Shown piece after piece: positions 6,518 through 52,059 of a stretch of 64,000 nt of DNA (the stretch's first letter is position 1; each line of letters begins with the position of its first letter). Where the stretch lies: NCBI GenBank assembly GCA_964016885.1, contig OZ024743.1, positions 296,050,001-296,114,000 on the forward strand, written 5' to 3'. The notes below the pieces were generated by a model. That model saw nothing but the letters and a program-made list of their open reading frames with translations. It had not been told where the DNA came from and did no database searches. This DNA comes from Eledone cirrhosa. Taxonomy: Eukaryota. A program made the translations under genes and the position numbers.

Positions 6518-6541
6518 CAGGGTGGTGGGCACGATTGAAAC

Positions 6542-6747
6542 CTAAAACAAACAATCCCTCCATTTCGTCAAGATAAAATGAAATTAAAGTAAATTCAGCC
6601 TTATAAGACCGTAAAATTAATTTAAGTAGAAGGCCTAACCGCCAACGCCATAGTGAAATCAACCAACTTATACTGAAAATAATCCAAACGTTTAATAGGG
6701 AAAGTTTGCTAACCGTCGTAATAAAAAAATAAATATCAATAACTTAC
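6542..6747 (-). other. Putative 5'-UTR spliceosomal intron of RepHel
   Basis: Minus-strand GTAAGT at 6747 and TTGTTTGTTTTAG ending at 6542, about 25 nt upstream of ATG 6517. Confidence 0.5.
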
Positions 6748-6912
6748 GAAGTAATGAACTCGCCGAACTTTTAAAGCGTTGTAGCATACAAAGGCAGTAC
6801 AGTGCAAATGAAGCTATTAAACAAACTGGAGATTCCAATTCACTCTACTAAAGATTTACTTAATCGTCTGCACATTCGCTAATCGTCTGCTCATTCCATA
6901 AAAGGGAAATAA

Positions 6913-7083
6913 TCGCCTATATCACCTCTCTGCATGACTGTCTGTCTGCACGCCTATATCACCTCTCTGCATGACTGTCTGTCTGCACGCCTATATCACC
7001 TCTCTGCACGACTATCTGTCTGCACGCGTATATCACCTCTCTGCACGACTGTCTGTCTGCACGACTGTCTGTCTGCACGCCTA
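6913..7083. repeat. ~37-bp minisatellite inside the Helitron 5' region
   Basis: Unit cgcctatatcacctctctgcatgactgtctgtctgca, about 4.5 degenerate copies. Also at 62162-62332. Confidence 0.9.
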
Positions 7084-8267: not shown

Positions 8268-8423
8268 GAATTAGGCACAATACAAACAAAAATGGCAACA
8301 TACTATAATCTTGAATCCCTCTTCTTATTTGACTTTCACCCCAGAATTAGGCACAATACAAACAAAAAGGGCTACATACTATAATCTTGAATGATCCCTC
8401 TTCTTATTTGACTTTCACCCCAG
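8268..8423. repeat. ~76-80-bp direct duplication
   Basis: gaattaggcacaatacaaacaaaaa...gactttcacccca occurs twice in tandem. Confidence 0.85.
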
Positions 8424-8861
8424 CACCTTTTCTGCCCTTGTCAAATCAGTCGTACACGTAAATATAGTCCTTCTGATGAAATCTTCTACGTCATTGACCA
8501 GACCTGTTCATGCTTGCTGCTAGCCAGGGGAGAGTTACATTAAACTGGTGTGTTATACAATCTTTTAGCCTTTTTCTTCATCGGTTAGTATTTGCTCTTT
8601 CCCAATTTTGACAAATTTTTAATTTAAAATACTGTGTAGCTGTAAGGCAATTTTGTAGTTCAATGAACTCAATTGCCTAAACCAGTAACCTTGAGCACTA
8701 TCAGACTTTGGCACTTCCCAATTGGGCGTTCTAAGACTTTTCTTACTAACCGTCATTTTATCAAAGTATATATCATTTGGAGTTGTATGTCTCTTTTTCT
8801 CCCGTTTTAATTCTTCTAAACATTCAACTTTATATGTATGCTTTTGAAACAGCGAGCGAGT

Positions 8862-10106: not shown

Positions 10107-10333
10107 TAGGATTGGCAGAATCGGTAGCGTGTCCGACATCATGCTTTGCAGCATAGAGTTACGACCCTTTATGTTCTGAGTTCAAAAACCCGCCAAGATT
10201 AACTTTGCTTTTCATCCTTACGGGGTCGATAAAATAAAGTACCAGTAACGCACTGGGGTCGATTTAATCGACTTCCTCCTCCCCCAAAATTGCTGTCTTT
10301 TGTGCCAATTATTGTTATTATTATTATTATTAT
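10107..10333 (+). mobile_element. tRNA-derived SINE (octopus-type)
   Basis: A-box-like TGGCAGAATCGG and B-box-like GAGTTCAAA. Body ttcatcct...ggggtcgataaaataaagtaccagt...ctggggtcgatttaatcgac, then an (ATT)n tail. Homologous to 14333 and 14547. Confidence 0.8.
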
Positions 10334-10381
10334 TCGATAATGAACTGGGTATTTGCTGGCCTTGTGCCAAAAGTAGAAACA

Positions 10382-10414
<33 letters not shown>

Positions 10415-10599
10415 TCTCCACAAATGTCCCTCCCCTCCGAAGTCTCCCCCCTATTGGGGAATTTTTCATTGTTATTTTTTTTGTTACATCCTCTGTTTTT
10501 GTTTTTACACGCAGAAATGCCCATTTGTACCGTCCTGTATTGTCCTGCACTGTCCTTAATGTCTACTTTATGTAAACCCTTGTGGTTAATAAAGAAATC
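10415..10599 (+). mobile_element. Tx1-like LINE 3'-UTR fragment inserted in (ATT)n
   Basis: Shares ccccctattgggg, tgtaaac and ccttgtgg..aataaagaaatc with the 3' UTRs of the other Tx1-like copies. (ATT)n on both sides. Confidence 0.7.
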
Positions 10600-10605
10600 A
10601 TTATT

Positions 10606-10655
<50 letters not shown>

Positions 10656-11226
10656 CATTTTTATCTTTATCACCATCATTGTCATCTTTATTATTATCAT
10701 CACAATTACCATCGTCACCACCATCATCATCACCACGACCATCAACATCCTCCTCCTCCTCCTCCTCCTCCTCACCATTATCTTCACAATCTTCAACATA
10801 TTCACTATCATCATCACCATCATCGTCATAACTATCATCATCTACAAAAGCATTATTATTTACATCACCATCACCATCACCATCACACTCACACTCACAC
10901 TCACCAACACTACCATCATCCTTATCATCACTATTATCATCATCATCACCATCATCTTCACTACCCTCACCATCACTACCACCATCATCATCACCATCCT
11001 CATCATAATCATCAACACTACTCACGGTATCACCACCATCACCAGCGCCACCATTATCATCATCATCATCATTAATACAGTCATCACTACTCTCACCATC
11101 ATCACCAGCATCAGCGTCACTATCATCATCATTATCATCACTACCTTCCTCATCATCAGCAGCATCCGCACCACTACCACCACCATCATCATCATCATCA
11201 TCATCATCGCCATCATTATCATCACG

Positions 11227-11268
<42 letters not shown>

Positions 11269-12768
11269 GCCATCCACATCATCATCACTACCACCATCAC
11301 TACCACCATCATCATCATCATCATCATCATCTTCATCATCACCACCACCAACATTATCATCATCACCACCACCACCACCACTACCATCATCATCATCATC
11401 ATTGTTATTATCATCATCGCCGTCATTATCATCATGACCACCATCATCATCATCATCATCATCATCACCATCATCATCAGCGTCATCACCCCCGCCACCA
11501 CCCCACACCGACCACTACCATCAGCTTCATCATCACCATCATCATCCCCACCAACACCACCACCATCGTCATCATCATCATCATCATTGTCGTCGTCATC
11601 ATCACCGCCAACACCACCACCATCATCATCACCACCACCATTACCATCATCATCGTCATTATCATCACCGCCACGACTACCATCGCCATCATCACCATCA
11701 CCATCATCACCCCCCCCCCACCATACCACCACCATCACCACCACCACCACCACGACTACCACCACCATTACAACTACCACCACCACCACCACTACCATCA
11801 CCATCACCATTACCATCATCATCACCCCTACCATACCACCACCACCACCACCACCACCATCACCACCACCACCACCACGACTACCACTACCACCATCACC
11901 ATCATCATCATCACCATCATCATCATCACCCCCATCATACCACCACCACACCACCACGACTACCACCACCATTACCATTACCATCACCATCATCACCCCC
12001 AACACCATCACCACTACCACCACCACCACCATCACCGCTACCACCACCACAGCACCCCCAACACCATCACCACTACCACCATCACCACTACCACCATCAC
12101 CATCACCATCATCATCATCATCATCACCCCCACCATACCCCATACCACCACCACCACGACCATCATCACCACTACTACCACCACCACTACCACCACCACT
12201 ACCACCACCACCACCATCATCACCATCATCATCACCATCCCTACCATACCACCACCACCACCACCACGACCATCATCACCACCACTACCACCACCACCAC
12301 CACCACTACCACCACCACCACCATCACCATCATCATCATCATCATCCCCACCATACCACCACCACCACCACCACCACCACCATCATCACCACCACTACCA
12401 CCACCACTACCACCACCACTACCACCACCACCACCATCATCACCATCATCATCACCATCCCTACCATACCACCACCACCACCACGACCATCATCACCACC
12501 ACTACCACCACCACCACCACCACCACTACCACCACCACCACCATCACCATCATCATCATCATCATCCCCACCATACCACCACCACCACCACCACGACCAT
12601 CATCACCACCACTACCACCACCACTACCACCACTACCACCACCACCACCACCACCACCACCACCACCACCACCACCACCATCATCATCACCATCCCCACC
12701 ATACCACCACCACCACCACCACCACGACCATCATCACCACCACTACCACCACCACTACCACCACCACC

Positions 12769-12800
<32 letters not shown>
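10600..12800. repeat. Compound trinucleotide tract (ATT/CAT/CAC/CCA)
   Basis: About 2.2 kb of degenerate triplet repeats with internal higher-order duplication. All frames give homopolymer peptides. Confidence 0.95.
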
Positions 12801-13104
12801 ATTTATGTATGACTTACACCCAAAACTACTTGCTCAGTCCTCCTAGTCTGTCTGGTGCCATTGTTATCAAGGTTGCTTGCCGCGTTTTTCGCCAACGTCT
12901 CATTGTAGTCGTTTCATACGTTAATTATTCAATCTTTTATTTGGCATGTTTATGTACTTTAATAAATCTTTAATACATGCTATACACCACTTTTAAGCTG
13001 GCTTTTATTTCCTTCCTACTTTTCTTGCCTTCCTCTAACAATTGAAATGCTTCTATTATTTTATTTCTCTTGAATTATTTTATTTTATTTCATTCTAATT
13101 ATCG

Positions 13105-13910
13105 TTTTGTTGCTGTTGTTGCTGTCTTAGTCGACGGTATTGTGGTTGTGGTTGATCTTGTGGTGATAGTAGTTGTTGTTGCTGCTGTTTTTTGCTGTTG
13201 TTGTTCTTCTTCGTCTTTTCTTCTTCTCTTTCTTCTTTTCTTCTTCTTATTCTCCTTTTTTTCTTCTTTTCTTCTTCTTCTTCTTCTTCTTCTTCTTCTT
13301 CTTCTTCTTCTTCTTCTTCTTCTTCTACTTCTTCTTCTTGATGTTCTTGTTGTTGCAGGCTTAGCCGTATATTATTGTAGTTGTAGTTGCTCTTGTGGCA
13401 GTTGTTATTATTGTTTTACTGTTCTTTATTCTTGTCATCGTCGTTGTCGTTGTTGTTGTTCTCGTTGTTGTTGTTGTTGTTGTTGTTGTTGTCGTCGTTG
13501 CTGTTGTTGTTGTTGTCGTCGTTGGCGTCTGTCGTCGTTGTTGTCGTTGTTGCTGTCATTGTTTTTGTAGTCGTTGTTGTTGTTGTAGCTGTTGTTGTTG
13601 CTGTCGTTGTTGTTATTGTTGTCGTCGTTATTGTTGTCGTCGTTGTTGTCGCTGCTGTCGTTGTCGTTGTTGTTGTTGTTGTTGTTGTCGTCGCTGTTGT
13701 TGTCGTTGTTATAGCTGTTGTCGTTGTTGTTATTGTTGTCGTCGTTGTTGTTGTCGTCGTTGTTGTTGTTGTTGCTGTCGTCGTTGTTGTTGTTGTTGTT
13801 GTTAGTGTTGTCGTTGTTGTTGTTGTCGCTGCTGTCGTTGTCGTTGTTGTTGTTGTCGTCGTCGTCGTTGTTGTTGTTGTCGTCCACGTTGTTGTTGTTG
13901 TTGTTGTTTG
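13105..13910. repeat. (GTT/GTC/CTT)n tract
   Basis: Seen directly in the sequence. Confidence 0.95.
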
Positions 13911-14178
13911 TCTCATATATTTTCCTCGTTGTTTGTCCTTCTCGTGACTATTGTTATGTATATTACAAAGATGTTTATATGTATTAGTTTTTGCTGGGAT
14001 GACTTTAGCTGTAGATTCTCGTTCTACATACTTGGATTGGAATGGAAGCTATATTTATTATCCCTGGTTCCTATTTCTTCTTTACGTTGTATTTTTTATT
14101 GTATCCTATGTTACCATTTATTTCTTCTGTCTTTCTTTCTTTTACTTATTCTTCTACTTCTTTTCCTTCCACTGCTAT

Positions 14179-14242
<64 letters not shown>

Positions 14243-14332
14243 GCTACTACTACTACACCACCACCACCATCACCACCACCACCATCACCACCACCACTAC
14301 TACTACTACTACTACTTTTGCTATTGTAATAA

Positions 14333-14530
14333 TGTGGTGGCTTGGAAGAATTGGTAGAGCGTCGGAGACCACGGTTTTGCAGCATAGAGTTACGGTCCTT
14401 TACGGTCTGAGTTCGAATCACGCCGAGGTTAGCTTTGCCTTTCATCCTGTAGTAATACACTGGCATCGATTTAATCGACTTTCTTCAAATTGCTGGCCTT
14501 GTGCCTAAAGTAGAAACAATTATTATTATC
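14333..14530 (+). mobile_element. tRNA-derived SINE, internally deleted
   Basis: B-box GAGTTCGAATC at ~14409, homology to 10107, (ATT) tail. Confidence 0.78.
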
Positions 14531-14546
14531 ATTACTTTATTATTAA

Positions 14547-14770
14547 GGGTGGTGGATTGGCAGAATCGGTAGAGCGTCGGACACCATGCTTTGCAGCATA
14601 GAGTTACGGCCCTGTACGGTCTGAGTGCAAATCCCGTCGAGGTTAACTTTGCCTTTCATCGTTACAGGATCGATAAAATAAAACACCAATAATTCACTGG
14701 GTTCGATTTAATCGACTTCCCCCTCCTCCAAATTGCTGGTATTGTGCCTAAATCAGAAACCATTATTATA
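14547..14770 (+). mobile_element. tRNA-derived SINE
   Basis: TGGCAGAATCGG A-box, same body as the other copies, gaaaccattattat tail. Confidence 0.8.
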
Positions 14771-14780
14771 ACTACTACTT

Positions 14781-16005
14781 CCCTTGCCCCGTTTGCGCCT
14801 CGCCAACTTGGAACGGCTCCTCTTCAAATTCTTGTGGAGGGGTCAGGTTCCGTTGGTGAGGCGGTCCATCTGCTGCCAGCACCCTCTATGTGGAGGGCTG
14901 GGCATGCCGTGGCTAATGATGCGCAGATACGCGCTAAGGCTGCGGCATCTCCAGATATTCTGCCTAAACGGTGAACAGGTGTGGCCGCAGCTCGTCTCTT
15001 TGAATGAGCTGCAGTCCTGGGTCAAGAAGAGACCGAGACTGGGTGACTGGCATCTGGAATGTTGCCAGACACTCACTGCCCTCTACCAGGCGGGCAATGT
15101 GGTCAGTGGAACTTCCACTCTCGAGTTCTATAGAGGATTAGTGGAGGGCAAGTGCGATGACGTACTAGGAGAGGCTCTGGGCGTCAACGAAGTAGAACTG
15201 ACCAGTATGTTCCGGAGGACTTTCGAGCCGGGGACGATGGATAACTTCCAGAAATCCCTCGCTTGGCAGTGCTACCGGGGGGCGCTGCCGGTTCGGGATA
15301 AACTCTACAGGCACGGAAGTGCTGTCAGACGAACCTGCCCGAGATGCGCGCAGAGCGACGAAACCGTTCTGCACGCACTCGTCCAGTGTCCGTGCATTGC
15401 TGACTTGTGGGGTTATGTCGAACAGCTATTGTCGCGTGTAGAACGGATCCGGCTATCGTCCGAGTCCATAGTGAAGATTGACCCGCCGCCTTCTTTTGGT
15501 CAGGAAGGGCAGGCAATTTTCCTCTGCCTGGTGGCAGTAGCGAAAGAGGTTGCATGGTGGACCAGGTTGAAAGGACTGAAGACAGACACTTTTCTCTTCG
15601 GCCAATCCCTCATCAACTTCTTCAAGTTTCACTTGGAAAGGAAGGTGAGGGTGGAGAGAGAAGTGCTGCCCCCCAGTACATTTACTGAAAGGTGGGTGAA
15701 TGTGGCGAGAATGGCCCGCGTGAGTGGGCCTACTCTGATCATGCGCCTGTAGGCTGGTGAATTCGAGAAGGAGAGGGGTGCCCTTCCCGGGTGCCCTAGG
15801 AGCGTCGGGTGGCTCAGGACTGGTGGGGTGCTTGAGTCAACCCTGGGTGGTGATCCCTCTTATTGGGGAACTTTCATTGTTGTATTTTTATTGTTATTTT
15901 GTTTTTTTGTTATTTATACTTACTCGATCTCTATGTAAACCCCCACTGTCCCTGTCTATTGTGTTGTCCCCTATATGTCGGCCCTTGTGGCCAATAAATG
16001 AAATC
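14781..16005 (+). mobile_element. 5'-truncated Tx1/L1-type LINE (ORF2 C-terminus + 3' UTR)
   Basis: Open frame 14784-15752 with FKFLW..GGLGMP and the zf-RVT-like CPRC..ETVLHALVQC. Ends aataaatgaaatc + (att). Follows a SINE ATT tail. Confidence 0.88.
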
Positions 16006-16536
16006 ATTTATTATTGATGGGGTTTCTTCGGTGTTTGTAATCCGTCAATTAATTGTCCGTTTGATAGCAAACGTTGCTGTCCTTTTGTTAAAACTACAAT
16101 GTATATATTTCGTTCTTTATTGTTTTTATTTTGTATTAATATTATTATTGTTATTATTATCACTATTATTTTGATAGTTGTTATTATATTATTGGCCTTC
16201 TTCTTTTACTTATTATTATTATATTGTTATTATTATCATTATTATTATCATCATCATCATCAACATCATCACTAATTATTACTATTATCTCTTTTATTAT
16301 TTTTATTGTTAGACACATCTTTATAATAAACATTATTATCATTTTCTAAATTGGTATCACTGTGCCAGATAAAAGAACACTATATATATATGTGTGTGTG
16401 TGTGTGTATATAAGTATTGATATATATATATAATTATTTCTGTGTTCATGTGTATGCATATATCTATAGATATACATATGTATATATCTATACGTACATA
16501 TAAGTACATATATACATATATATATGTGTATGTATG

Positions 16537-22699: not shown

Positions 22700-22723
22700 A
22701 TATATATAGAGAGAGAGAGACAG

Positions 22724-25141: not shown

Positions 25142-25174
<33 letters not shown>

Positions 25175-25210
25175 TTGCGTGTGTATGTACATGTATATGT
25201 ATGAATATGA

Positions 25211-25311
<101 letters not shown>

Positions 25312-38028: not shown

Positions 38029-38085
38029 AAGATAGATAGCTAGATCGATCGATCGATCGATCGATCGATAGATAAATAGATAGAT

Positions 38086-38137
<52 letters not shown>
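38029..38137. repeat. (GATA)n/(GATC)n tract, left border of the LINE array
   Basis: Seen directly in the sequence. Confidence 0.95.
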
Positions 38138-38138
<1 letters not shown>

Positions 38139-38336
38139 TCATTATTTGCCACTGGGGCGTACCTAATGGGACATTACAAGACGGGGGTTTTACATAACAA
38201 TCATACAACTTTAACATTAATAAATAACAATAAACTATATGTAATAAAATAACAATTGAAATCCCCAATAGGGGGGAACGTTACTGCAGGGTTGTTTTAC
38301 ACCCCGAGGATAGAACAACCCTCCACACCAGGAACA
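38138..38336 (-). mobile_element. Tx1-like LINE E1 (3' UTR only)
   Basis: Similar to the 3' UTR of E4 (40789-40995). GATA repeats on both sides. Confidence 0.85.
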
Positions 38337-38346
38337 ATAGATAGAT

Positions 38347-39202
38347 ATGTTTCTTTATTAGCCACAGGGGCACAAAAGAAGAGGACAATTACAAAGGGAG
38401 GAGTTTACATACAATAAAAACATGTAAAATATTATCACAAATGCAAATTAAAAGTTAATCGATTTTCCCCAATAGGGGGAGACAGTTCATATGGGTAGCA
38501 CATACCCCCGAAAAAAATGTGCAACCCTCATCTCCAGCAGTACGAAGAGTTTGTACCCCTTTCCTCTCTTCCTCTTTTCCCTCAAACTACAGTCTGATAT
38601 AGAGAGAAGGCCCATTCACTCGGGCCATTCTTGCCACTTTCACCGACCTTTCATAAAACTTGCTGGGGTACAGCACCTCTCTCTCCATCCTGATTCTTCT
38701 TCCAAAGTGGTATTTGAAAAAAATAATCAGTTGTTGGCCGGAGAGATGGGTGTCTGACCTCAGCCCTTTTAACCTCGTCCACCATGCAACCTCTTTCGCC
38801 ATAGCTATCACACAAAGGAAAACCGCCTGTCCTTCGTTTTTTGAAGGAGGATGGCGGTTTGATCATGACAATGGACTCGGTGGTCAATCGGATTGGTCCT
38901 ACCCGCGACAATAGTCGTTCTACATAGCCCCACAGGTCGGTAACGCCCGGGCAGTGTATGAATGCGTGCGCGACGGTTTCTTCGTCTCGCACGCATCTCG
39001 GACAGATCTTTTTCGAAGGGTCCCTGCTCGGGCGCCCATGTCTGTAGAGCTTGTCACGAATTGGTAGAGCTCCTCGGTAGCACTGCCAGGCCAGGGACTT
39101 TTGGAAGTTGTCCATCGGTCCCGGGCGGAAGGTCCTACCGAATAGACTGGCCAGTTCGTCTTCTTCCGCGCCTAGAGTTTTTCCGAGCGCGTCGTCGCAC
39201 AC
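38347..39202 (-). mobile_element. Tx1-like LINE E2 (5'-truncated)
   Basis: FQKSLAWQCYRGALP, CPRC..ETVAHAFIHC. Frameshifted. Flanked by GATA repeats. Confidence 0.9.
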
Positions 39203-39224
39203 AATAGATAGATAGATAGATAGA

Positions 39225-40756
39225 TTTCTTTATTTGCCACAAGGGCGCACAAGAAAAGGGTACAATACAAAGACACATGCCGGGGATTTTACATACAATC
39301 GTGTAAAAATATTATTAAAACAAGAAAATTTAACAATTGAAATCCCCAATAGGGGGGAGACGTTACAAATAGGTTGTTTAATACCCCTTTGATAGAACAC
39401 CCCTCAACTCTAGGAGCGTGTTGTGCAAAAGCTCCTTTCTTCCTTTTGCTCTCATCTTCAACCTACAGGTTTATATACAGAGAAGGCCCAATCACTCGGG
39501 CCATTTCTGCTACATTCACCCCACCTTTCAGTAAATTTACTGGGGTGCAGTGCCTCTCTCTCCCCTTTGATTCTCCTTCTAAAGTGGTACCTAAAGAAGG
39601 GAATGGGTTGTTGTCCGGAGAGAAAGGCATCTGTCCTCAGTCCTCTCAATCTCGTCCACCATATAATCTCTTTTACCATAGCCACTATACAGAGGAAAAC
39701 CGCCTCTCTTTTGTTTTTGAAAGAAGTTGGCGGTTTGATACTTACTATGGACTTGGCAGTCAACTGGATTTGTCCCATACGTGACAGCAGTTGTTCTGCG
39801 TAGTTCCACAGGTCGGTTACGCCCGGGAAGTGTACAATTGCGTGCAAGACGGTTTCAATGTCCTTCTCGCATCTTGAACACGTCCTCTTGGAAGGATCCC
39901 TGCCGAGGCGTTCGTGCCTGTAGATCTTGTCTCGAACTGGTAGAGCTCCTCGGTAGCACTGCCAGGCCAGGGACCTGGATAGTTGTCCATAGGTCCCGGG
40001 CGGAAAGTACTACCAAACAGTCTGGTGAGCTCGTCGTCTTCGATGCCCAGAGTCTCTCCGAGTACGTCGTCGCACTTGTAACGCACTAACCCTCTATAGA
40101 ATGTCGAAGTGGAGTCTCCACTGATTGCTGTGCCCGCTTGAAAGAGGATTGTGGGCGCCTGAGAGCATTCAATGTGCCAGGCGCCCATTTTCTTCGGGAT
40201 CCGCTTGACCCAGGACTGCAACTCCGTCAGCGAGACAAGTTGCGGGAAGGCTTGTCTCAGAAATGGGGCCCACACCGGTTGTTCGGTGAGGAATACCTGT
40301 AGATGTCGTAGCCTCAGCGCGTGTTTGCGCATCATCAGCCACGGCATTCTCAGCCCTCCGTTGGAAGGGTGCTGACAACAGACGGATCTCCTCACCAGTG
40401 GAGCCTGGAAGAGCATGCGTTCCATCTTGGTGAGGTATTCACGGGGACAAGGCACGACGGTCAAGCGGTAGTAGATGACGGACGCTATAAAAGTGTTCGC
40501 CACCTCCGCTCGACCTTTCAAGGATAGTTTGCACTCTGCCCAATTCTGGGTGAGTGCAAATACCTTGTTTCAATTTTTTTCCACCTGGAGGTCCGGACCG
40601 AACCAGACGCCAAGCAATTTCACCGGTCGTTCCGTCCAGCGTCCGGCGATGCTGTCGGACGGTATCGGTTTGCCACTCCACGTTCCGAGTTGCAAACCTA
40701 CAGACTTGTCCGGGTTCAGTTTTGCTCCTGTGAGCCTTTCGTATTCCTGCAGTAAG
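39225..40756 (-). mobile_element. Tx1-like LINE E3 (5'-truncated)
   Basis: KGRAEVANTFIASVIYYRL, GGLRMPW, zf-RVT-like end. Several frameshifts. Flanked by GATA. Confidence 0.9.
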
Positions 40757-40788
40757 GATAGATAGATAAGTGGTTAGATAGATAGATA

Positions 40789-43700
40789 TCTTTCTTTATT
40801 TGCCACAGGGGCGTACAAAAATGGGACATTACAAGACCTGACGGTGGGGGTTTTACATAAAAATAACTTTAACATTAATAAATAACAATAAACTATACAT
40901 AATAAAATAACAATTGAAATCCCCAGTAGAGGAGAACGTTACTGCAGGGTTCTTTTACACCCCGTGGATAGAACGACCCTCAACACCAGGAACACGTTTT
41001 GTAGGTGTTCCCGTCTTCCCTCTGTTTATCTTCCTCAACTTACAGGTTTATATACAGAGAAAGCCCATTCATTCGGGCCATTTTTGCCACATTCACCCAC
41101 CTTTCAGCGAATTTACTGGGGTGTAGCACCCCTCTCTCCACTCTCATCTTCCTTCTGAAGTGATACTTAAAGAAGGGGATAAGTTGTTGTCCGGAGAGAA
41201 AGGTGTTTTCCCTCAGTCATTTTAACCTCGTCCACCATATTACCTCTTTCACCATAGCCACCAGACAGAGGAAAATCGCCTCTCCTTCGTTCTTAAATGA
41301 AGTCGGCGGGGTGAACCTCACGATGGACTCGGCTGAAAACTGGATGCGTCTCACACGTGACAGCGGCTGTTCGACATAATTCCACAGGTCGGTCACCCCT
41401 GGGCACTGAACAATTGCGTGCAGAACGGTTTCAATGTCCTGCTCGCATCTTGGACAGGATCTCTGCCAGGGCGTCCATGCCTGTAGATTTTGTCTCGAAC
41501 TGGTAGAGCTCCTCGGTAGCACTGCCAGGCGAGAGACCTCTGAAAGTTATCCATAAGCCCTGGACGGAAAGTCCTCTCGAACAGACTGGTCAGTTCGTCC
41601 TCCTCGATGCTTAGAGTCTCCACGAGAACGTCGTCGCACTTATCCTCCACTAACTCTGTATAGAATGTCGAAGTAGAGTCTCCGCTGATTGCCGTTTCCC
41701 CTTGGTAGACGGCTGTGAACGCCTGTAGGCACTCGAGGTGCCAGGCACCCATTTTCGGTCTTCGCTTGACCCAGTACTGCAGCTCTGTTACTGAGACGAG
41801 TTGTGGAAGAGCTTGTCTCACAAACGACAGCCACACCGGTTCACCGGTCAGGAATACCTGGAGATGGCGTAGCCTCAGCGCATGTTTGCGCATCATCAGC
41901 CACGGCATGCCCAGCCCTCCGTTAGAAGGGTGTTGACAGCAGATGGATCTCCTCTCCAATGCAGCCTGTTTCTTCCAAGGAACTTGAAGTGTAGGCGTTC
42001 CATTTTGGTAAGGTATTCGCGGGGGCAAGGCACGACTGTCAAGCGGTAGTAGATGACGGGCCCTATGTAAGTGTTCGCCACCTCCGCTCGACCTTTCAAG
42101 GAGAGTTTGCACTCAGCCCACTTCTGGGTGAGTGCAAACACCTTCGCCGTGACCTCGTTCCAGTTCTTGTCTACCTGGAGGTCTGGACCGAACCAGACCC
42201 CGAGTAATTTCACCGGTCCTTCCGTCCAGCGTCCAACGACACTGTCGGAAGGCATGTGTTTGCCTCTCCATGTGCCGAGTTGTTTGGGTTTAGTCTTGCT
42301 CCTGTCAACGTTTCGTATTCCTGTAATAGGTTGCTGATTACCCTGATTTCTGAGGTTTTCGACACCATTACCGTTGTGTCGTCGGCATAGGCTGACGTTG
42401 CTTTCCGCAGTGCTGGTTCGATCGGGATGCCCTGCAACAGCTCCAATTTCCGCAGTAACGGCTCGAGAGTCAGTACATACAGAATGGAGGAGAGAGGGCA
42501 TCCCTGACGGATGGAACGTATGATTTGGAATATCTTTGATAGGTAGCCATTCACCTTGACTGCCGAGCAGATGGTGGTGTGCATGGCAGCGATCCAGCCT
42601 CTGAAGACGGACCGAAGCCGGCCGCCTTGAGAACTGCTTCCAAGTATTGATGGTCGACCCTATCAAATGCCTTAGACTGATCTAAATTGATCAGAGCTCC
42701 ACCAAAGCCAGGTTTACACCCAACCCTCTCTATGATGTATCGCATGAATTTGAGGTTGTCGTGTATGGAACTGGTCGGGATTGCACACATTTAGAATTCC
42801 CCTACTAGGTTCTCGACGACAAGCGCCAGCCTTACTGCTAACACCTTGGCCAAAATCTTTAACTCTGGTTTGAGTAGAGTTATGGGCCTGAAATTGCTTA
42901 TCTCATCCCCCTTGTTCTCATCTTTCCTGATCAGCGTTACTACGCCTCTGCCTACAGAACTGGGAATCCTCCCGTTCTGCTGCCAGTTGCAGTAGACCGC
43001 TTCGAGGACGCCAGAGAACAAGTCTGGTATGCCTATGTAAAACTCATAGGGTAACCATCTAAACCGGGAGATTTGCGTTTCCCGCAGCGGCCTAGAGCAT
43101 CTATTTCGCCCGCTGTGATCGGCCTTTCGCAGCTCTCCGCATACCTGCTCGAGAGTCGCGGTACGCCGTCGAGGTAGGAGCTGAAGTCCATCACCTCGCT
43201 CTATGTCCCGCTTTGCCCGAACAGTTGTGCAAAATGCTGCTGGAAGGCCGCGCACATCTGCTTGGATTCAAGTATAATGCGTCCATCTTTGTCTTGCAAA
43301 GACCGAATTGTGGATTTGTTGCCACTCTTCGCCTCTGCCACTCGGGCCAGGCTAACAGCTTTGGCTCCCTCGTTTCTTAGAGCACGTGTTCTACTTCTGA
43401 CAATACAACCTTCGTGTTTCACGTTGAAGAACTGGTCTAGTGCCGTTTTCGCCGCTAGTACGTCAGCTGTACTGCCATCCCTAAGTGCCTCTTCTATTTT
43501 AGCTACCAGTTCCTTTTCAGTTTTGTTTTTTTCTAAAGCTACTTCCTTGCTAAATGCTATTGATTCTATTCTAATTGCTTTCTTGAGAGAGCTCCACCAC
43601 CTGTTGTTGACGATCGCCCCCGTCAACTGGCACTTAACTAAGGTGCTAATCCGTTTACTGTAGGCCTTACGCGCTGGGAGCGACATGTTTAGCTTCCAGT

Positions 43701-45296
43701 ATACGGGTCCCTGTCTATGTATTCTATCAAGGTTGACTACGCAGGTTTTGGGGGTTCCTCTTCATTCTCACTTGGAGATGTAGAGGTTCCCGTATCTGAG
43801 ACTTCTGAATCAGGGGTAGGTGGGAGGGTATGTTGTGTGGTGGAGTGTTTGTGCAGGTGTTTGTGGAAGTATTTGACAGAGGGGGAGAGGCAATGGAGGG
43901 TTTTTCAGTGGGATTTTGTGTGGGAGATTGTCTCTGGTCTGTGGTGGTGTGGGAGTGGATGTTGCAGGTGTTTGTCTTGTGTTTGGTTTGGAGTGTTGAT
44001 GTCGGGGTTTTGGTGTTGGTAATAACACCTTGTTTGTCCTCGGTTTGTTTTAGAGGGGGCAAAAGGCCTTTAAGTGTGTGGTTTTCCCACACTTATGGCA
44101 CTGAGGTCTTTTCCCCTCCACTAAAATGGAGATGACATCTTCCTCAAGGACGATCCTGTCCGGTATTTTCTCAATTCTCTCTGGCCTCATTTGTACCAGA
44201 ACCTCGATGCATGTTCCAAACCAGTTATGCCGGTCTGTCCTGTCTACAGATAGGAGGGTGTCCTCATCCTCCTTCGGGATGCAGCGTAGGATCCACCATA
44301 TGTTGACCTCTGCTGGGATCCTGGTTATTTTTATTTTGTAGAATGGTCTTCCCATGTATGTGGGGAAGAAAATGTGTTGATCCGTTTTTATTGGGTGAAC
44401 CGAGTGTTTTTGTGCTAGAGTTTAGCTCTTAAAGAGCACTGACACACTTCCATACTGTTTACCTCTTTGGAGATATGCGACGTCTGGCTGATGTCATTTA
44501 GTGCAGCTTTTATAGTGCTTGTTGGGAGCGTTATGGGTTTTTTGGTAGTGATGTCAACTTTTCTATAAATTAGCTTCTTTTTCTGTGTAATTTCTCTTAC
44601 TTGTGGGGGTATGTGTGTGTGGGGGGTGTCTCCCACAAACGTCACATAGTTGGAAGCTTCTTCCAAATATTGGGACTTTTGGGAAATGTCCATGGAGTAG
44701 TATTTAAAATCATGTTGCTTAGCAACTGTTGCTGCAAATGAAATTTTGTTATTGTTGTTGTTGGTGGTGATGGTGGTCTCATTCGTTGTGTTGCCACTGA
44801 TTCCTTTTATTGTGTTGTTGTTGTTCTCATTTATTGTGCTGTTGTTGTTGGTTGTGGTGGTATTCGTGTTTGCTACATATACTTCCTTCTGTGTGTGGAT
44901 ACATGTGACGTTTGTGACGTCAGGCGTGTTCAGTTGCTTACAAGCAGCTGAAGCTTGTTTCTCTTCTAAATGTTGAGGCGATAATGTTGGCATTCCTTTG
45001 TCCATGTCTGCTACTACCTGCTGGTCAAGTAGGCATCTTCTTGTTTTGACAAAAAAGTAGGTGCCTTTACTTCAGCCATTTTAAAAAAATTGAAGCGTTT
45101 TCCAAAATCTTTTTTTCGAAAATATTGTGGATGTTTTTGCCCTGAGGGGCACGGTATTTTGGGAGAGTGACCAGATCAAAATTTGACCTGTCAGTCCCTC
45201 TACAAATTGGTATAAAAATAAAAGTTCACAATGACGAATTTCTAATGAAATTTAAACAAAACTTACCGAGCAAGTTTAACACATGTGTCCATCCCA
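40789..45296 (-). mobile_element. Tx1-like LINE E4 (5'-complete, endonuclease deleted)
   Basis: ORF1 remnants with zinc knuckle CHKCGKTTHLKAFC. ORF2 resumes at ~43746 (TCVVNLDR..YWKLN). RT motifs NFRPITLL, LDQSKAFDRVDH, RQGCPLS, YADD. 5' end tgggatggacac abuts GATA. Confidence 0.92.
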
Positions 45297-45306
45297 GAGA
45301 TAGATA

Positions 45307-48300
45307 ACTTTCTTTTTATTTGCCACCAGGGCATCAAAAAGTGGGACAAGTACAATGGGGGGAGTTTACATAAAAAGGCGTCCTCAATAAGGAGGAGGCA
45401 ATAACAATATATAAAAAATAATATATAAAATATAACAAAAATAAATTTAATAACAAAATCCTCAATAGGGAGGAGGCGCCTTGGGGGGTCGCACCCCCCC
45501 CACCGAAAAAAGTGTGCAACCCTTCTCCTTAGGAGCACAGAGAGGGGGTGCTCCCTTGATCTTTCATCTTCCTCACCTATAGTCTGATGTAGAGTGAAGG
45601 CCCATTCACAAGGGCCATTCTCGCCACTTTCACCCATCTTTCATAAAAACGCCTGGGGTGCAGCACCTCTCTCTCAATTCTGATCCTTCTTCCGAAATGA
45701 TATCGGAAGAAACGGACCAGTTGTTGGCCAGAGAGAAAGGTGTCTGACCTCAGTCCTTTCAGACACGTCCACCATACAACTTCTTTCGCCATGGCTATTA
45801 CGCACAGAAACACCGCCTCTCCTTCGTTTTTGAAGAGGGGAGGCGGCTTGATCGTTACATTAGACTCGGTAGTCAACCGGATCGGTCCCACCCTTGACAG
45901 CAGACATTCGACATAGCCACACAGATCGGCAATGCCCGAGCAGTGTACCAATGCGTGTGCAACGGTTTCCTCGTCGGACACGCATCTGGGACAGATCTTT
46001 TTCGAGGGGTGCCTGCCCGGGCGCCCGTGTCTGTAGAGCCTTTCTCGAGCAGGCAGAGCCCCTCGGTAGCACTGCCAGGCCAACGACCTCTGGAAGTTAT
46101 CCATGGGTCCCGGGCTGAATGTCCTACCGAACAGGTTGGCCAGTTCGTCTTCCTCCATGCCTAGGGCTTCTCCGAGGGCGTCGTCGCACCTGCTAACCAC
46201 CAGCCCTCTATAGAATGACGAGGTGGATTCTCCACTGACATCCGCTCCGCCTGCCAGAGAGCCGTAAGCGTCTAGGCACACTCGGTGTGCCAGGCGCCCA
46301 GTTTTCTTGGTCTTTTCTTGACCCAGGATTGCAGCTCGGTGAGCGAGACGAGTCTCAGAAAGGCTCGCCTCACAAACGGGGCCCTCACCGGTTGACCAGT
46401 GAGGAATACCTGGAGGTGCCGTAGCCTTAATGCGTGTTTACGTATCATTAGCCACGGCATCCCCAGCCCTCCTTTCGAAGGGTGTTGACAGCAGATGGAT
46501 CTCCTCACCATAGGAGCCCGCTTCTTCCAGAGGAATTGTAAGAGTGCGCGCTCCATTTTGGCGAGCGTTTCCCTTGGGCAAGGCACGACGGTCATGCGGT
46601 AGTAGATGACGGACGCTATATAAGTGTTCGCCACCTCCGCCCGACCTTTCAGGGACAGTTTGCACTCGGCCCACTTCTGGGTCAGTGCAAGCACCCTGTT
46701 CGTGACCACACCGCAGTTCTTCTCCACCTGGAGATCTGGTCTGAATCAGACCCCGAGCAACTTCATCGGGCCCTCCGTCCAGCGCCCGACGACGCCATCG
46801 GAGGGCATCGATCTACCCCTCCACGTGCCAAGTTGCAGACTGATCGACTTGTCCCGGTTCAGCTTAGCCCCTGTAAACCTTTCGTACTCTTCCAGTAAGG
46901 TGCCGATCGCTCCGATTTCCGAGGCCGTCGACACCATTACTGTTACGTCATCGGCGTAGGCCGACACCGCTTTCCGCAATCCCGGTTCCAACGGGATGCC
47001 CTGCAACAACTCCAACTTCCGCAGCAGTGGCTCTAGAGTCATTACATACAGAAGGGAAGTGAGAGGGCACCCTTGTCGGATGGACCGCGCGATATCGAAC
47101 GGCTCCGAGAGGTAGCCGTTCACCTTGACCCTAGAGCAGATGCGGCTGCTGTGCATGGCAGTGATCCAGCCCCTGAAAACGGGTCCGAAGCCTGCCGCAT
47201 CTAGCACCGCATCCAGGTAACCATGGTCGACCCTATCGAACGCCTTAGATTGATCCAAGTTGATCAGGGCCCCACCAAAGCCGGGTTCTTTCCCAACCCT
47301 CTCTATGATGTATCGCATGAGGTGGAGGTTGTCGTGGATGGACCTGGACGGGATAGCACATGTCTGCGCATCTCCCACCAGGTTGCCCACGACAAGCGCC
47401 AACCTCTTTGCTAGCACCTTGGTCAAAATCTGTAACTCTGTATTAGCAGAGTTATGGGCCTGAAATTATTTATATCGTCCCCCTTGTTCTCGTCCTTCCT
47501 CACTAGCGTGACTACACCCTTGGTCACAGCACAGGGAATTCTCCCGTTCTGTTGCCAGTTGCAGTAGACCGCCTCGAGGAGATCGGGGAACAAGTCCAGC
47601 ATAGCTAGATATAGTTCGTATGGAAGACCATCGAGACCCGGGGATTTACGTTTGCCGCATTGGCTCAGCACGTCCTCTATCTCAGCGGTTGAAATCGGCT
47701 CCTCGCAGGACTTCGCCTCCCTGTCCGAGAGACGCGGCAGGCGGTCGAGGTATGGATCGAAGTCCACTTCCCCAACCGGTTCCTCGCCCCTTCCGAACAA
47801 TCTGGCCCAGCTAACAGCTTTGGTCTCCTCGTTTCCCAGAGCACGTATTTTGCTTCGGACTATGCAGCCTTCGTGTTTCGCGTCGAAGATCTGGCCCAGG
47901 GCCGTTATCGACGGCCACGTCGCCGCTTCTAATTGCCTCTTCTACACTATCTACCAATTCCCTTCCCTTCCTATTTCTACTAATTTCTACTACAAATCCT
48001 TACTAAATTCTATAGAGACTACTCTAATCTCTCTTTTGAGAGATCCCCACCACCTGCTGTTGACGATGGCGCCCGTCAACCGCTCCTTAACTAAAGTGTT
48101 AATCCGGTCCCTGTAAGCCTTACTTGCCGGTAAGGACAAGTTAAGCTTCCAGTAACCGGGTCCCTGTCTATGCGTTCTGTCAAGGTTGACCATGCAGGTC
48201 ACTAACTTGTGGTCTGAATAGCCAACCATGAGCATTTTTGGACAACTTAAAAAGTCCTTATCCTTATTTCTAACTAAGAACCTATCTAGGTACGACCTCG

Positions 48301-50893
48301 ATGATCCGCTACGGTTTGCCCAAGTCCAGGTTGGCGCAGTCGGAAAATCTAGTCGATATCTATCGGCCAGGTCAAATCGACCGATTATCTCTATCGGGAC
48401 AGGCCCCTACGTAGTCCCAACGTGCATCTAGGATACCATTCCAGTCCCCCACTAATAGCAAGGAGCGGGACGTCCCTAGAAAAGTCTCCAGACGATGGAA
48501 GAAGTCCGGCCGCGTTGACCCGAAAGGGCCGTAGACGGCTACCAGCCTAAACGCTCCGCCTTCACCACTGCCAAGGTCCAGAACCACTAGTCGACCCTCC
48601 GGGTACAAATGTACCGTCTGTGTTGCGAGACCCAGATGTTTTTGCAGCAGAACGACAACTCCACCCCCACCTCCGGGCTGACAGAGAGATGCCTGCATCT
48701 CAAAGTCATTAAAGGTGGGGGCCAGCTGTCGCACGTTGCTGATCCGGGCCTCGCAAATAACCATCACATCTATATGTTGTGACCTGAGGTCATTTAGAAG
48801 CATTGCTTGCTTCCAAGTTGAGCCCAGGCCACGCGCATTTAGACAGCCTACTCTTAGCATAGCCATGTTGGTGGTGAAGAGAAAAGGCACTTACCTCTCT
48901 GCGTCCCGGGTATCGGGCTGCACAATTTCCATGAGGGTGGGGGATGGGTTGTTGGGTGGGGTGGTGGTTTGTGGAAGTGTAGGGGCATCAGTGTGTTGTG
49001 TGGTTGGGGTGTTTGGAGTTGTATGGGTGTTTGGGGAGGGGGTGGGGAAGTTTTTTTAGGAGGACGCTATTAATGGGCCCTACGCGGGGGAGGAGGGGGG
49101 AGGGGGGCACGCCCTCTTTAAAGTTGTTTTTTAGTGTTTTATATGTGTCCTCTGGGGCCTTAATTATTTTGAGGTGGGGGAAATCTCCTGCCTGGGTGAA
49201 GTTAGGCTCTTGGGTTACTAAATTGTTGTTGTATACAATGTTTAGCAGTTTTTTTATTTCTTGTGTTTCTGTATGTGTATGCATGTTTTTGTTTCTGTGT
49301 GGTGTTTTTTGTTTGCTGTTGTTGTGTGCTCTTTTGTGTTGGTGTCAGTGTTATGTTTTGGGGAGGGGTTGTTTTCATTTGTGTGTCTGAGTTGTGTTTT
49401 CTTTGTTTTCTTTTGATTGTGTGGAAGTGCTCCTCCTCGTCTGACGACGAACGAGGGTCATCTTCCGCGTTGAAGGGGAGGGGTAGATTTTCGGGTTGTG
49501 TTTGCGGTGCGGGTATTTTGGAAATTGTTTTTTTTTAGTGGGGGGATGGGTTGGACAGTGTTTTGTTTTGGTTTGAGCTGTGGTTGTTGTTTTTGTAGTG
49601 GTGGTTGTGGTGATTGTGTTGGTTGTGCAGTTGTTGGTGGTGTAGGCAGGATTGGGGTTTTCTTTTTAAGTTGAGGACAGACAGCCCTCATGTGACCTCT
49701 GACTCCACAGAGGTAACACGAGGGCCGCCTACCCTCAACGGTAATGTTGATAAAAGTTTGATCATCCAGTATGACGTGTTCAGGGATCTGGGCGATCCTT
49801 TCGGGCCTCATTTGAACTACAAGTTCGAGGCCCAGTCCACTGAACGCGTCACCCGATGCCTTTCCCATGGATATTAGTGTGTCATCGTCTAGGTCCAGGA
49901 AACCTGTCAATACCCACCATATGTCCATAATCAGAAGGATTGTGTGCATTTTTATTTTTTGTAACCTTCTACCCATGTACGTAGGGTAGAAGGTGTATGC
50001 GGTGGATGTGATTGGTTTTATGGACAGTTTCATTGCTGTGTCCCTGTCCTTCATGAGAATGGATAGACTCCCGTAGAGTCTATCCTTCTGAATGAATATG
50101 ATGTTTTTCATGACATCTTTTAAAACCAGCTCTATCTAACTCTGTGATGGTTGAGCTGGTTTTTTGCTTTTGTTTGAGACTGTCCTAAACATGTTTAGGA
50201 GTCACTGGCATTTTAGTTCCGGGGGAGGGGGGATAAAAAATGATCCATTTTTCCCCGTATACTGTATTTTTTGGCAACTGCCAGTAGCTCCTTCGCTTTG
50301 CTTATATCTACTGGCAGATAGTCGAGGGTTTTCCTTGCCGTCTGGGCGAAGGAGACCTTTTCCTTGTTTGTGTTGCTGTTGTAGTTGGTGGTGTTGTTGT
50401 TATCACTGTTGTTGTTATCATTGTTGTTGTTATCATTGTTGTTGGTGTTGTTGTTTCTGTTGTCTTTATTGTTGCTGTTGTTGTCGTTGTTGTTGTTGTT
50501 GTTTTCGGTTTCTTGTGTCGTTGTGGCTACATCAAGTTGTCGGTCAGCAGGTGGAGAAAGTTCTCCCTCTGGCTGACCTCTGCTTTTGGCAGCTGCTGCT
50601 GTGCCAGTGGCAGGGGGAAGCTGTGAGTTTAGCTTCCCTTTTCTTTCTTTGAATGTTGGTGAAGCTGCTTCAGCCATTTTTATCAAAGAAGGAAATTTTT
50701 CGAAAGATAACAATTTTTTTTTTCAACACAATTTCGCCTAAAGGCGTAGAATAATTTGAGAGACTGACCAGATCAAAATTTGACCTGGCAGTCCCTCTAC
50801 AAAATGGTACAAAAATGAAGGTTTACAGTCAAGAATTTCTGTAGAAATTTAAGCAGAACTTACTCAGCAAGTTTCACGCGTGTGTCCATCCCA
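45307..50893 (-). mobile_element. Tx1-like LINE E5 (near full length, decayed)
   Basis: ORF1 (MAEAASP.. from ~50677; knuckle CYLCGVRGHMRAVC). ORF2 APE endonuclease (LNARGL, VYGP, GDWN, LDRFL, SDH), RT (KSPGLDGLPYE, DQSKAFDRV, QGCPL, YADD) and zf-RVT-like end. Multiple frameshifts. Confidence 0.94.
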
Positions 50894-50894
50894 G

Positions 50895-50925
<31 letters not shown>

Positions 50926-51708
50926 TGTTTCTTTTATTTGCCACAAGGGCATCAAAAGTGGGACAAGTACAATGGGGGGAGTTTACAAAACAAGGCGTCC
51001 TCAATAGGGAGGAGGCAATAACAATATATAAAAATAAAATAAAATATAACAAAAAATAGAATTATAACAAAATCCTCAATAGAGGATTTTGTTATAAAAT
51101 ATAACAAAAAATAAAATTTATAACAAAATCCTCAATAGAGAGGAGGCGCCTTGGGGGGTCGCACACACCCCCGAAAAAGTGTGCAACCCTTTTCCTCAGG
51201 AGCACAGAGAAGGGGTGCTCCCTTGGTCTTTCATCTTCCTCACCTATAGTCTGATGTAGAGTGAAGGCCCATTCACACGGGCCATTCTCGCCACTTTCAC
51301 CCATCTTTCATAGAAACGGCTGGGGTGCAGCACCTCTCTCTCCATCCTGATCCTTCTTCCGAAATGATATCGGAAGAAACGGACCAGTTGTTGGCCAGAG
51401 AGAAAGGTGTCTGACCTCAGTCCTTTCAGACGCGTCCACCATACAACCTCTTTCGCCATGGCTATTACGCACAGAAACACCGCCTCTCCTTCGTTTTTGA
51501 AGAGAGGAGGCGGCTTGATCGTTACAATAGACTCGGTGGTCAACCGGATCGGTCCCACCCTTGACAGCAGTTGTTCGACATAGCCCCACAGATCGGCAAT
51601 GCCCGAGCAGTGTACCAATGCGTGTGCAACGGTTTCCTCGTCGCACACGCATCTGGGACAGATCTTTTTCGATGGGTCCCTACCCGGGCGCCCGTGTCTG
51701 TAGAGCCT
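50926..51708 (-). mobile_element. Tx1-like LINE E6 (5'-truncated, E5 subfamily)
   Basis: Closely similar to the 3' 0.7 kb of E5. (GATA)n at 50894-50925 and 51709-51748. Confidence 0.92.
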
Positions 51709-51748
<40 letters not shown>

Positions 51749-52059
51749 CATGATGGGACGGAGAGAGGTAGAATAGTAGTGGAATATATAAAGAGGTAGG
51801 GAATTAGGTAAATAGATAGACAGTTATAAAGATAGGCTAGTATGTAATTACGATTGTATGTAATTTGATAATTAGTTATATTGGCAATTAGATAGTTTGG
51901 CAGATGTGCAAGACAGAAAACAGATTGAAAAGTTGTATGTATAAGTTATACAAGATAGCAAAAATAAATAATAGTTGTAACATATGAGAGAATATAATTT
52001 AAAAGAAATAGCAAATCAGGAGAATGCTATTTAGAAGGAATGACAGATTAGAAAAATAG

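What the first reader, a model, noticed from the sequence alone, without database searches (positions are those of the whole stretch)
10349..16015. Sibling LINE with a different target: (ATT)n tails of SINEs
Seen: the ORF2 C-terminus at 14784-15752 is clearly homologous to E2-E6 (FQKSLAWQCYRGALPVRDKLYRHG, VARMARV.GP.L..RL). It and the fragment at 10415-10599 end in AATAAA(T)GAAATC followed by (ATT)n instead of (TATC)n. Both begin just after the (ATT) tail of a co-oriented tRNA-SINE. Inference: closely related families have switched microsatellite specificity (ATT versus ATCT), and the ATT family exploits abundant SINE tails. This would be a natural pair for mapping endonuclease specificity determinants. 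Only two copies support it here.
Basis: partly seen in the sequence, partly recalled or inferred. Interest (0 to 1): 0.72.

Follow-up and report, generated by a model that had tools for sequence, protein, structure and literature searches.

The report
Octopus repeat-seeking LINEs and hitchhiking SINE
Two related jumping-gene lineages in an octopus-like genome land in different simple repeats (ATT or TATC), a known kind of behaviour, and the short SINE elements beside the ATT copies look like passengers that share the LINE's tail hairpin, not just landing pads.

Summary
Copy B (14779-16005) is a 5'-truncated L1/Tx1-type LINE and copy A (10415-10599) is a 3' UTR fragment. Both sit in ATT on both sides, though B's tails are short and decayed. 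Six related copies at 38.0-51.7 kb all sit in (TATC)n.

Raw reads widen the two-copy case: 6,946 reads at a depth of about 7,200-8,150 run on past B's 3' end with an (ATT)n consensus. The five TATC copies with coding sequence form a clade, 62-68% identical to B. Target shifts between sister Tx1 families are already known (Kibi/Koshi; crocodilian families).

Two inferences are not supported. SINE tails are not shown to be preferred (5 of 10 local ATT loci are SINE tails). The endonuclease hairpin loop barely differs (2 of 8 residues; linkage to the ATT family is indirect).

New lead: the SINE's last ~25 nt align without gaps to the LINE 3' ends and share a small hairpin with compensatory changes. 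The SINE is therefore probably the LINE's non-autonomous partner, piling into the same ATT nests. No whole genome was held, so 5' flanks rest on three junctions.

The parts
10109..10307 (+). SINE copy 1 (head start lost, 3' end decayed); ATT tail 10308-10334
   Evidence: 81% to SINE3 over 224 nt; alignment
10335..10381 (+). 5'-truncated SINE 3' fragment; hairpin TGGC-CTTGT-GCCA at 10357-10369
   Evidence: 39/40 to SINE2 end plus tail; folds the shared hairpin
10382..10414 (+). (ATT)11 between SINE fragment and LINE fragment A
10415..10599 (+). LINE fragment A, 3' UTR only; homology clear from 10445; hairpin AACC-CTTGT-GGTT at 10575-10587
   Evidence: 69% to B over 170 nt, E 2e-13
10600..10664 (+). 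(ATT)n after A, grading into a 2.2-kb ATC/CAC tract
14334..14518 (+). SINE copy 2 (internal deletion); ATT tail 14519-14545
14549..14762 (+). SINE copy 3, starting directly after the tail of SINE2
14763..14778 (+). decayed ATT/ACT tract between SINE3 and LINE B
14779..15752 (+). LINE B: 5'-truncated ORF2 (post-RT region and zf-RVT CCHC domain)
   Evidence: PF13966; 79% to P0001, 62% to an Argonauta hians protein
15753..16005 (+). LINE B 3' UTR; hairpin GGCC-CTTGT-GGCC at 15980-15992, then AATAAA and the terminus
16006..16015 (+). short ATT tail of B; reads of related copies run on in (ATT)n here
   Evidence: 6,946 loose ends behind 16008
38030..51750 (-). nest of six related LINE copies in (TATC)n: E1 50927-51710, E2 45308-50892 and E3 40788-45295 (both with the 5' end), E4 39222-40755, E5 38347-39205, E6 38136-38338
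   Evidence: clade with UFBoot 99 for E1-E5
48296..48319 (-). endonuclease betaB6-betaB5 loop of TATC copy E2 (ANRSGSSR)
   Evidence: position inferred through the P0006-L1 ORF2p alignment

Best explanation
An octopus L1/Tx1-type LINE lineage has split into subfamilies that insert, by target-primed reverse transcription, into different microsatellites in a fixed orientation: (ATT)n for the B type and (TATC)n for the E type. Each insertion leaves repeat units on both sides, so tracts become head-to-tail nests. The local SINE carries a LINE-like 3' hairpin (3-4 bp stem, 5-nt loop ending GU, about 13 nt before the terminus). It is most likely reverse-transcribed by the ATT subfamily and so lands in the same tracts. 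LINE-after-SINE is then a by-product of a shared target, and the order of insertion is open. Shown: flanks, subfamily split, shared 3' sequence and fold. Inferred: targeting by the endonuclease, recognition of the hairpin, mobilisation of the SINE. Odds: ATT targeting about 0.85; SINE partnership about 0.6; both together about 0.55.
For: 3' side: 6,946 raw reads of run X23 are loose behind 16008, consensus (ATT)7 then GTT, agreement 0.76. Depth there is 7,193 (bin mean) to 8,149 (at 15963) and falls to 0 beyond 16015. 5' side: 3 of 3 junctions seen have ATT upstream (A; B, decayed; one read group of 75 reads with 1 start, joining a LINE 3' end, four ATT units and a truncated copy at 15292). 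TATC: 6 of 6 copies, both junctions. Subfamilies. SINE: 12 ends align without gaps. The same hairpin is the MFE in 8 of 8 LINE and 2 of 4 SINE ends. 3 of 4 pairs show two-sided changes; covariation 0.386, reached by 2 of 500 shuffles, 0.015-0.155 when slid. A matrix built from the 8 LINE ends alone ranks the SINE ends 10, 12, 48 and 297 of 127,936 sites, ranks 1-8 being the training set. SINE ends run on in ATT in 104 contigs of run X4. Precedent: Tx1-Mar and SINEU share a target (PMC4494074).
Against: No genome was held, so there is no genome-wide 5' flank test. The number of loci behind the 6,946 reads is unknown (reduced-representation library, PCR copies). Only 6 loose-end rows per run were shown and 4,314 were hidden. 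The hairpin is tiny: no fold beats its shuffles (z -1.6 to +1.1), 2 of 4 SINE ends do not fold it, and the outer pair is unpaired in 7 of 12. The covariation control ignores relatedness and I chose the columns after looking. SINE ends match TATC copies as well as ATT copies, so the hairpin does not say which subfamily drives the SINE. An unrelated repeat at 34556 outscores the SINE ends. A is not clearly closer to B than to the TATC copies.
Confidence: 0.55

Rival explanations
1. One reading: the ATT subfamily targets (ATT)n and mainly uses tails of an unrelated SINE that is mobilised by another LINE (for example RTE or CR1). The 3' likeness of SINE and LINE is chance, convergence or an old relic.
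For: 2 of 2 window copies follow a SINE end. RTE, CR1 and Dong are active in Octopus vulgaris (PMC13282606). The shared stretch is only about 22 nt, 13-17 matches for the two best SINE ends against 7 of 8 LINE ends.
Against: 5 of 10 local ATT loci are SINE tails, so 2 of 2 has p about 0.25. A truncated copy also follows a LINE's own tail. The likeness is in register with the terminus and keeps pairing through a C-G to G-C flip.
Confidence: 0.25
2. The repeats are self-made tails, not endonuclease targets. Each subfamily's RNA ends in ATT or TATC units, and pairing of that RNA end with a nicked look-alike tract (or slippage) gives the flanks, while the endonucleases are nearly the same.
For: The hairpin loops differ by only 2 of 8 residues. 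Both repeats share T|AT at the junction and differ by one C. PMC1950540 raises RNA-target pairing as an added contribution. The 3' read evidence cannot tell tail from target.
Against: Repeats are also upstream of 5'-truncated copies in 9 of 9 junctions seen (6 TATC, 3 ATT). Other endonuclease surfaces differ (54-64% identity between P0385 and E2). This rival still implies target choice, only by another route.
Confidence: 0.15
3. Passive accumulation or chance: LINE and SINE copies collect in repeat-rich, neutral DNA, and ATT adjacency at the 5' side is coincidental.
For: The window has 194 tandem-repeat rows. B's flanks are decayed. Passive build-up is proposed for Waldo-A/B (PMC3812793).
Against: Exact abutment in one polarity, repeat type sorted by clade, and ATT-adjacent positions of only 0.37-1.3%.
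Confidence: 0.05

Closest known systems
Kibi (TC)n and Koshi (TTC)n of teleosts; crocodilian Tx1 families on (TTCC)n/(TTTC)n (PMC4494074, PMC3812793)
   Same: APE-type L1/Tx1-group LINEs inserting in microsatellites; neighbouring lineages use repeats that differ by one base.
   Different: Host is an octopod; the repeats are A/T-rich ATT and TATC, not pyrimidine tracts. Relation to Kibi/Koshi in a tree was not tested.
Tx1-Mar LINEs and SINEU of crocodilians (PMC4494074)
   Same: A SINE shares the target of a Tx1 family and forms tandem nests with it.
   Different: SINEU has snRNA heads and poly(A) tails, targets a Mariner element, and no LINE matched the SINEU-1 3' half. Here the head looks tRNA-like and the 3' hairpin is shared.
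Stringent L1-clade pairs: maize LINE1-1_ZM with ZmSINE2/3; Chlamydomonas L1-1_CR with SINEX-3 (PMC3747384)
   Same: LINE and SINE share a short 3' hairpin with compensatory changes and a conserved loop.
   Different: Those are plant and algal. That review's Table 1 lists no L1/Tx1 partner among its animal pairs and no mollusc pair.
Dong (R4 clade) on (TAA)n (PMC3812793); Dong-R4 is active in O. vulgaris (PMC13282606)
   Same: Uses the same duplex repeat class (TAA/ATT).
   Different: A different clade with another endonuclease type (recalled); these copies are L1-like with an APE domain.

Membership tests
L1/Tx1 group LINE | APE-type endonuclease at the ORF2 N-terminus | tested here: met
   E2: PF03372 E 9e-5, 22.7 bits, just under the 24.5 cut-off on a partial frame. 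B-like P0385 carries PF03372. B itself lacks this part.
L1/Tx1 group LINE | RT followed by a C-terminal CCHC (zf-RVT) domain | tested here: met
   PF00078 in E2, PF13966 in B; both in P0001-P0003
L1/Tx1 group LINE | Closest solved relative is L1 ORF2p | tested here: met
   Indirect: full-length relative P0006 (44% to P0002) hits human L1 ORF2p at 1e-72 and R2 at 6e-29
Tx1 clade proper | RT tree groups with named Tx1L, Keno, Kibi, Koshi | not testable with these tools
   No named Tx1 reference came back. The label Tx1 is recalled from anatomy.
Tx1 clade proper | ORF1 with a CCHC zinc knuckle (feature recalled) | tested here: met
   C-x2-C-x4-H-x4-C in the E2 ORF1 frame 49458-50135; no Pfam hit
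Target-specific LINE (criterion of PMC4494074: target in more than 20% of flanks) | Target repeat at the 3' flank | tested here: met
   6,946 reads at depth about 7,200-8,150, ATT consensus; reads, not loci. TATC 6 of 6.
Target-specific LINE (criterion of PMC4494074: target in more than 20% of flanks) | Target repeat at the 5' flank of independent truncated copies | tested here: inconclusive
   ATT 3 of 3 (one decayed, one a single read group); TATC 6 of 6 but in one nest
tRNA-derived SINE | tRNA-like head with A and B boxes | tested here: inconclusive
   Box-like motifs seen by eye; ARAGORN 0 genes; no Rfam tRNA match
Stringent SINE-LINE pair | Shared 3'-terminal sequence | tested here: met
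   Ungapped alignment; LINE-only matrix ranks; short and post hoc
Stringent SINE-LINE pair | Shared stem-loop with compensatory changes | tested here: inconclusive
   10 of 12 fold it; 3 of 4 pairs change on both sides; only 4 pairs and related sequences
Stringent SINE-LINE pair | Trans-mobilisation that depends on the 3' end | not testable with these tools
   Needs a reporter assay

The most novel reading that the evidence does not exclude
A widespread octopus SINE is driven by a microsatellite-targeting Tx1-type LINE through a shared 3' hairpin. It would be an animal L1/Tx1 pair of the stringent type, a kind that a 2013 table of pairs lists only for plants and algae. SINE and LINE would then seed and re-use (ATT)n tracts together, while a sister LINE with the same hairpin and an almost identical endonuclease loop has moved to (TATC)n. 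The pair would test directly whether endonuclease or RNA tail sets the target.
Probability: 0.45. Interest if true: 0.7.

Novelty: new variant of a known kind. Interest (0 to 1): 0.5.

Why it matters
Microsatellite-specific Tx1 families and one-base target shifts are known, so the ATT/TATC pair alone is a new example. PMC3812793 (2013) says the mechanism of such targeting is not well understood; two sister families 62-68% alike in one genome are a usable natural pair. The near-identical hairpin loop points away from the usual suspect. If the SINE is the partner, it names a possible engine for part of the octopus SINE expansion (SINEs are 11.6% of the O. vulgaris assembly, PMC13282606) and extends stringent 3' recognition to an animal Tx1 lineage.

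Tried and rejected
No whole genome was held. Related loci: none in genome contigs, viral contigs or metagenome contigs. DNA patterns: 0 hits. The window pattern was badly specified (2 hits) and was not used.

The 4,246 heterogeneous loose ends before 14827 in run X23 first looked like non-ATT 5' flanks. They start at an AATT site 75 nt from a GCATGC site, and other read starts and ends also fall on such sites (14903/14906, 14731, 15515). I read them as double-digest ligation chimeras and dropped them; the enzyme names SphI and MluCI are recalled.

Endonuclease search: loops STKNGKSR (Argonauta, P0247), TNRIGSSR (P0237) and IHRIGTSR (P0266) cannot be tied to a tail. PDB search with the E2 endonuclease piece gave nothing relevant. 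The Atlas gave only generic RT clusters.

Direction of the switch: 4 of 5 topologies stay in the confidence set (AU p 0.10-0.56). In one search, rows with 100 or fewer aligned residues would have been dropped; 24 rows were kept. A and E6 have no coding part and are not in the tree. One search used 15 of the 24 rows.

Local SINE-LINE alignments over 60-70 nt gave p<0.05 in 15 of 32 pairs, none for SINE1. The SINE3 window was off by one base. The RTE-like end at 26.3 kb showed no likeness to the SINE end by eye. Rows with small word shares were not used, except X4, which was laid. Earlier-findings look-ups by sequence, place and long word list were empty.
Full report
SETTING. The window is octopod DNA by its named protein hits (Argonauta hians; a fragment in an Octopus bimaculoides model). 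No whole genome was held. Labels A, B and E1-E6 are mine.

WHAT IS THERE. B (14779-16005, +) is a 5'-truncated LINE: 320 codons of ORF2 with a zf-RVT domain, a 253-nt 3' UTR and a short tail ATT-T-ATT-ATT. It follows SINE3 and a decayed ATTATTAT-AACTACTAC tract. A (10415-10599, +) is a 3' UTR fragment between (ATT)11 and (ATT)9-TTT-(ATT)8; the first tract ends a ~45-nt SINE fragment. Each is the last member of a co-oriented run: SINE1, SINE fragment, A; and SINE2, SINE3, B. On the minus strand at 38.0-51.7 kb six relatives are nested head to tail, with TATC units at both junctions in 6 of 6. E2 and E3 keep a shared 5' end (85% over 144 nt).

IS ATT ADJACENCY REAL? Positions within 12 nt after (ATT)>=3 are 0.37% of the + strand, and after (ATT)>=2 are 1.3%. 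I laid 4 of 24 listed runs on 14700-16100 at 85% likeness. In the one raw-read run (X23, 131,379 reads laid), 6,946 reads are loose behind 16008 with consensus (ATT)7(GTT)3 and agreement 0.76. Mean depth there is 7,193 (8,149 at 15963) and falls to 0 beyond 16015. Imperfect agreement and 74-172 read starts at nearby variants suggest many loci, but the number is unknown and this is a reduced-representation library. One read group (75 reads, 1 start) joins a LINE 3' end, four ATT units and a truncated copy starting at 15292, so a copy can follow a LINE tail as well as a SINE tail. Only 6 loose-end rows per run were shown; no row at 16008 was shown for the three contig runs. The 4,246 mixed loose ends before 14827 coincide with an AATT cut site and were set aside as library chimeras.

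TWO SUBFAMILIES. Over the C-terminal ~330 residues B is 62-68% identical to E1-E5 and 79-81% to four unnamed database proteins. The TATC copies carry a 4-residue insertion after RHG that B, P0001-P0003 lack, and form a clade with UFBoot 99. Forcing B together with E3 and E4 is rejected (AU p 1e-7), but four other topologies stand, so the direction of the switch is open. A is B's best BLAST partner (69%, 170 nt) yet is no closer to B than to the TATC UTRs in MAFFT (85/136 against 58-65%). It may be a third subfamily.

ARE SINE TAILS EXPLOITED? Of 10 local ATT loci (9 with three or more units, excluding A's own tail, plus the SINE3 tail), 5 are SINE tails. Two of two is then p about 0.25. The SINEs themselves start after ATT-like tracts: SINE3 after SINE2's tail, the fragment after SINE1's tail, with weaker cases for SINE1 and SINE2.

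A SHARED 3' HAIRPIN. The last 32 nt of 8 LINE and 4 SINE copies align without gaps. A stem of 3-4 pairs closing a 5-nt loop, about 13 nt before the terminus, is the minimum-energy fold in 8 of 8 LINE and 2 of 4 SINE ends, though none beats its shuffles. The stem reads GGCC/GGCC in B, AACC/GGTT in A, mostly (T)GCC/GGC(A) in E, and (T)GGC/GCC(A) in the two best SINE ends. Three of 4 pairs change on both sides; covariation is 0.386, reached by 2 of 500 shuffles, and 0.015-0.155 when slid; the outer pair fails in 7 of 12. That control ignores relatedness. A matrix from the LINE ends alone ranks the SINE ends 10, 12, 48 and 297 of 127,936 sites; among sites that can form the stem, two are first and second after the training set. 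An unrelated repeat at 34556 ranks 9. I chose the columns after noticing the likeness. SINE ends match TATC copies as well as ATT copies, so the link to the ATT subfamily rests on the shared repeat and polarity (SINE ends run on in ATT in 104 contigs of X4).

THE ENDONUCLEASE LOOP. Only E2 keeps an endonuclease; its loop between the WTW and SYLDR anchors is ANRSGSSR, placed by the alignment of relative P0006 to L1 ORF2p. P0385 (endonuclease) and P0124 (RT and B-type C-terminus) have the same source and contig length, 3,877, and abut on P0002, so they are probably one B-like element. Its loop is ANSSGSAR: same length, 2 of 8 residues different. That element's tail is unknown, and other fragments vary as much (TNRIGSSR, IHRIGTSR). 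Loop grafts do alter L1 nicking (PMC1950540), so two residues could matter, but other surfaces or RNA-target pairing are as likely. ATT and ATCT differ by one C and share T|AT at the junction.

MECHANISM. Shown: flanks, clades, shared 3' sequence. Inferred: ORF2p binds the 3' hairpin, nicks the bottom strand of its preferred repeat, primes reverse transcription there and often stops early. Repeat units remain on both sides, so nests grow in one orientation. The SINE borrows the ATT subfamily's protein and joins the same nests.

COMPARISON. It works like Kibi/Koshi and the crocodilian TTCC/TTTC families, and like Tx1-Mar with SINEU. Membership of the L1-like group is supported; Tx1 proper could not be tested against named references. 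A hairpin-sharing pair resembles the maize and Chlamydomonas L1 pairs; the 2013 table lists no animal L1/Tx1 partner. O. vulgaris has 13 recently active L1-Tx1 families. That the SINE belongs to the octopus Deu/Nin type is recalled, not tested.

WHAT I READ. PMC4494074: passages, sections 15 and 16, text parts 2-3 of 5; its Fig. 3 with the target list is not held and could name ATT or TATC. PMC13282606: part 1 of 3 and a search of its one supplement. PMC3747384: passages and tables part 1 of 2. Passages only: PMC3812793, PMC1950540, PMC4758252, PMC3531059, PMC4824008, PMC8967140. Not seen: Kojima and Fujiwara 2004, Ohshima and Okada 1994, Repbase, Dfam. Eight searches showed no report of ATT- or TATC-targeting octopus Tx1 or of a Tx1 partner for an octopus SINE; most listed papers were seen only as listings, and Repbase may hold such entries.

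VERDICT. A real feature. The target shift is a new example of a known kind. The probable SINE partner with a shared 3' hairpin makes it a new variant. Interest 0.5.

Noticed in passing
window 1-8751 and 55250-64000: A 99.87% identical direct duplicate of at least 8.75 kb, 55,249 bp apart, holding a Helitron-like Rep/PIF1 helicase ORF. A recent Helitron copy, a tandem duplication, or an assembly artefact.
   Followed up: no
window 17836-18956 and 20386-21527: Inverted copies 92.6% alike with a Penelope-like ORF end (label recalled). A short terminal motif recurs at 17790, 21549 and, alone between (TA)n tracts, at 34545-34590.
   Followed up: partly
window 16349-16380 (+): A SINE-like 3' end (rank 11 in the LINE-end matrix) behind a decayed ATT tract but followed by (TA)n, not ATT. 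Not verified as a SINE.
   Followed up: partly
window 21800-21965 (-): Decayed SINE remnant (65% over 106 nt) ending in ATC/ATT units.
   Followed up: partly
window 10600-14316: A long chain of related trinucleotide tracts (ATT, ATC, CAC, TTC, GTT, ACT) between the two ATT nests; may be tail-seeded repeats drifting by point change and slippage.
   Followed up: no
window 25093-26328 (+): RTE-like ORF2 C-terminus (label recalled) with several C2H2 zinc fingers.
   Followed up: no
window 22710-24385 (+): Broken RT-bearing element, PF00078 E 9e-6, Penelope-like by recall.
   Followed up: no
window ~43760 (-): E3 keeps its 5' end and ORF1 but has lost most of the endonuclease by an internal deletion.
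   Followed up: partly
P0004: An Octopus bimaculoides RhoGEF10-like gene model contains a piece 78% identical to 14% of B's ORF2: exonisation or a gene-model error.
   Followed up: no
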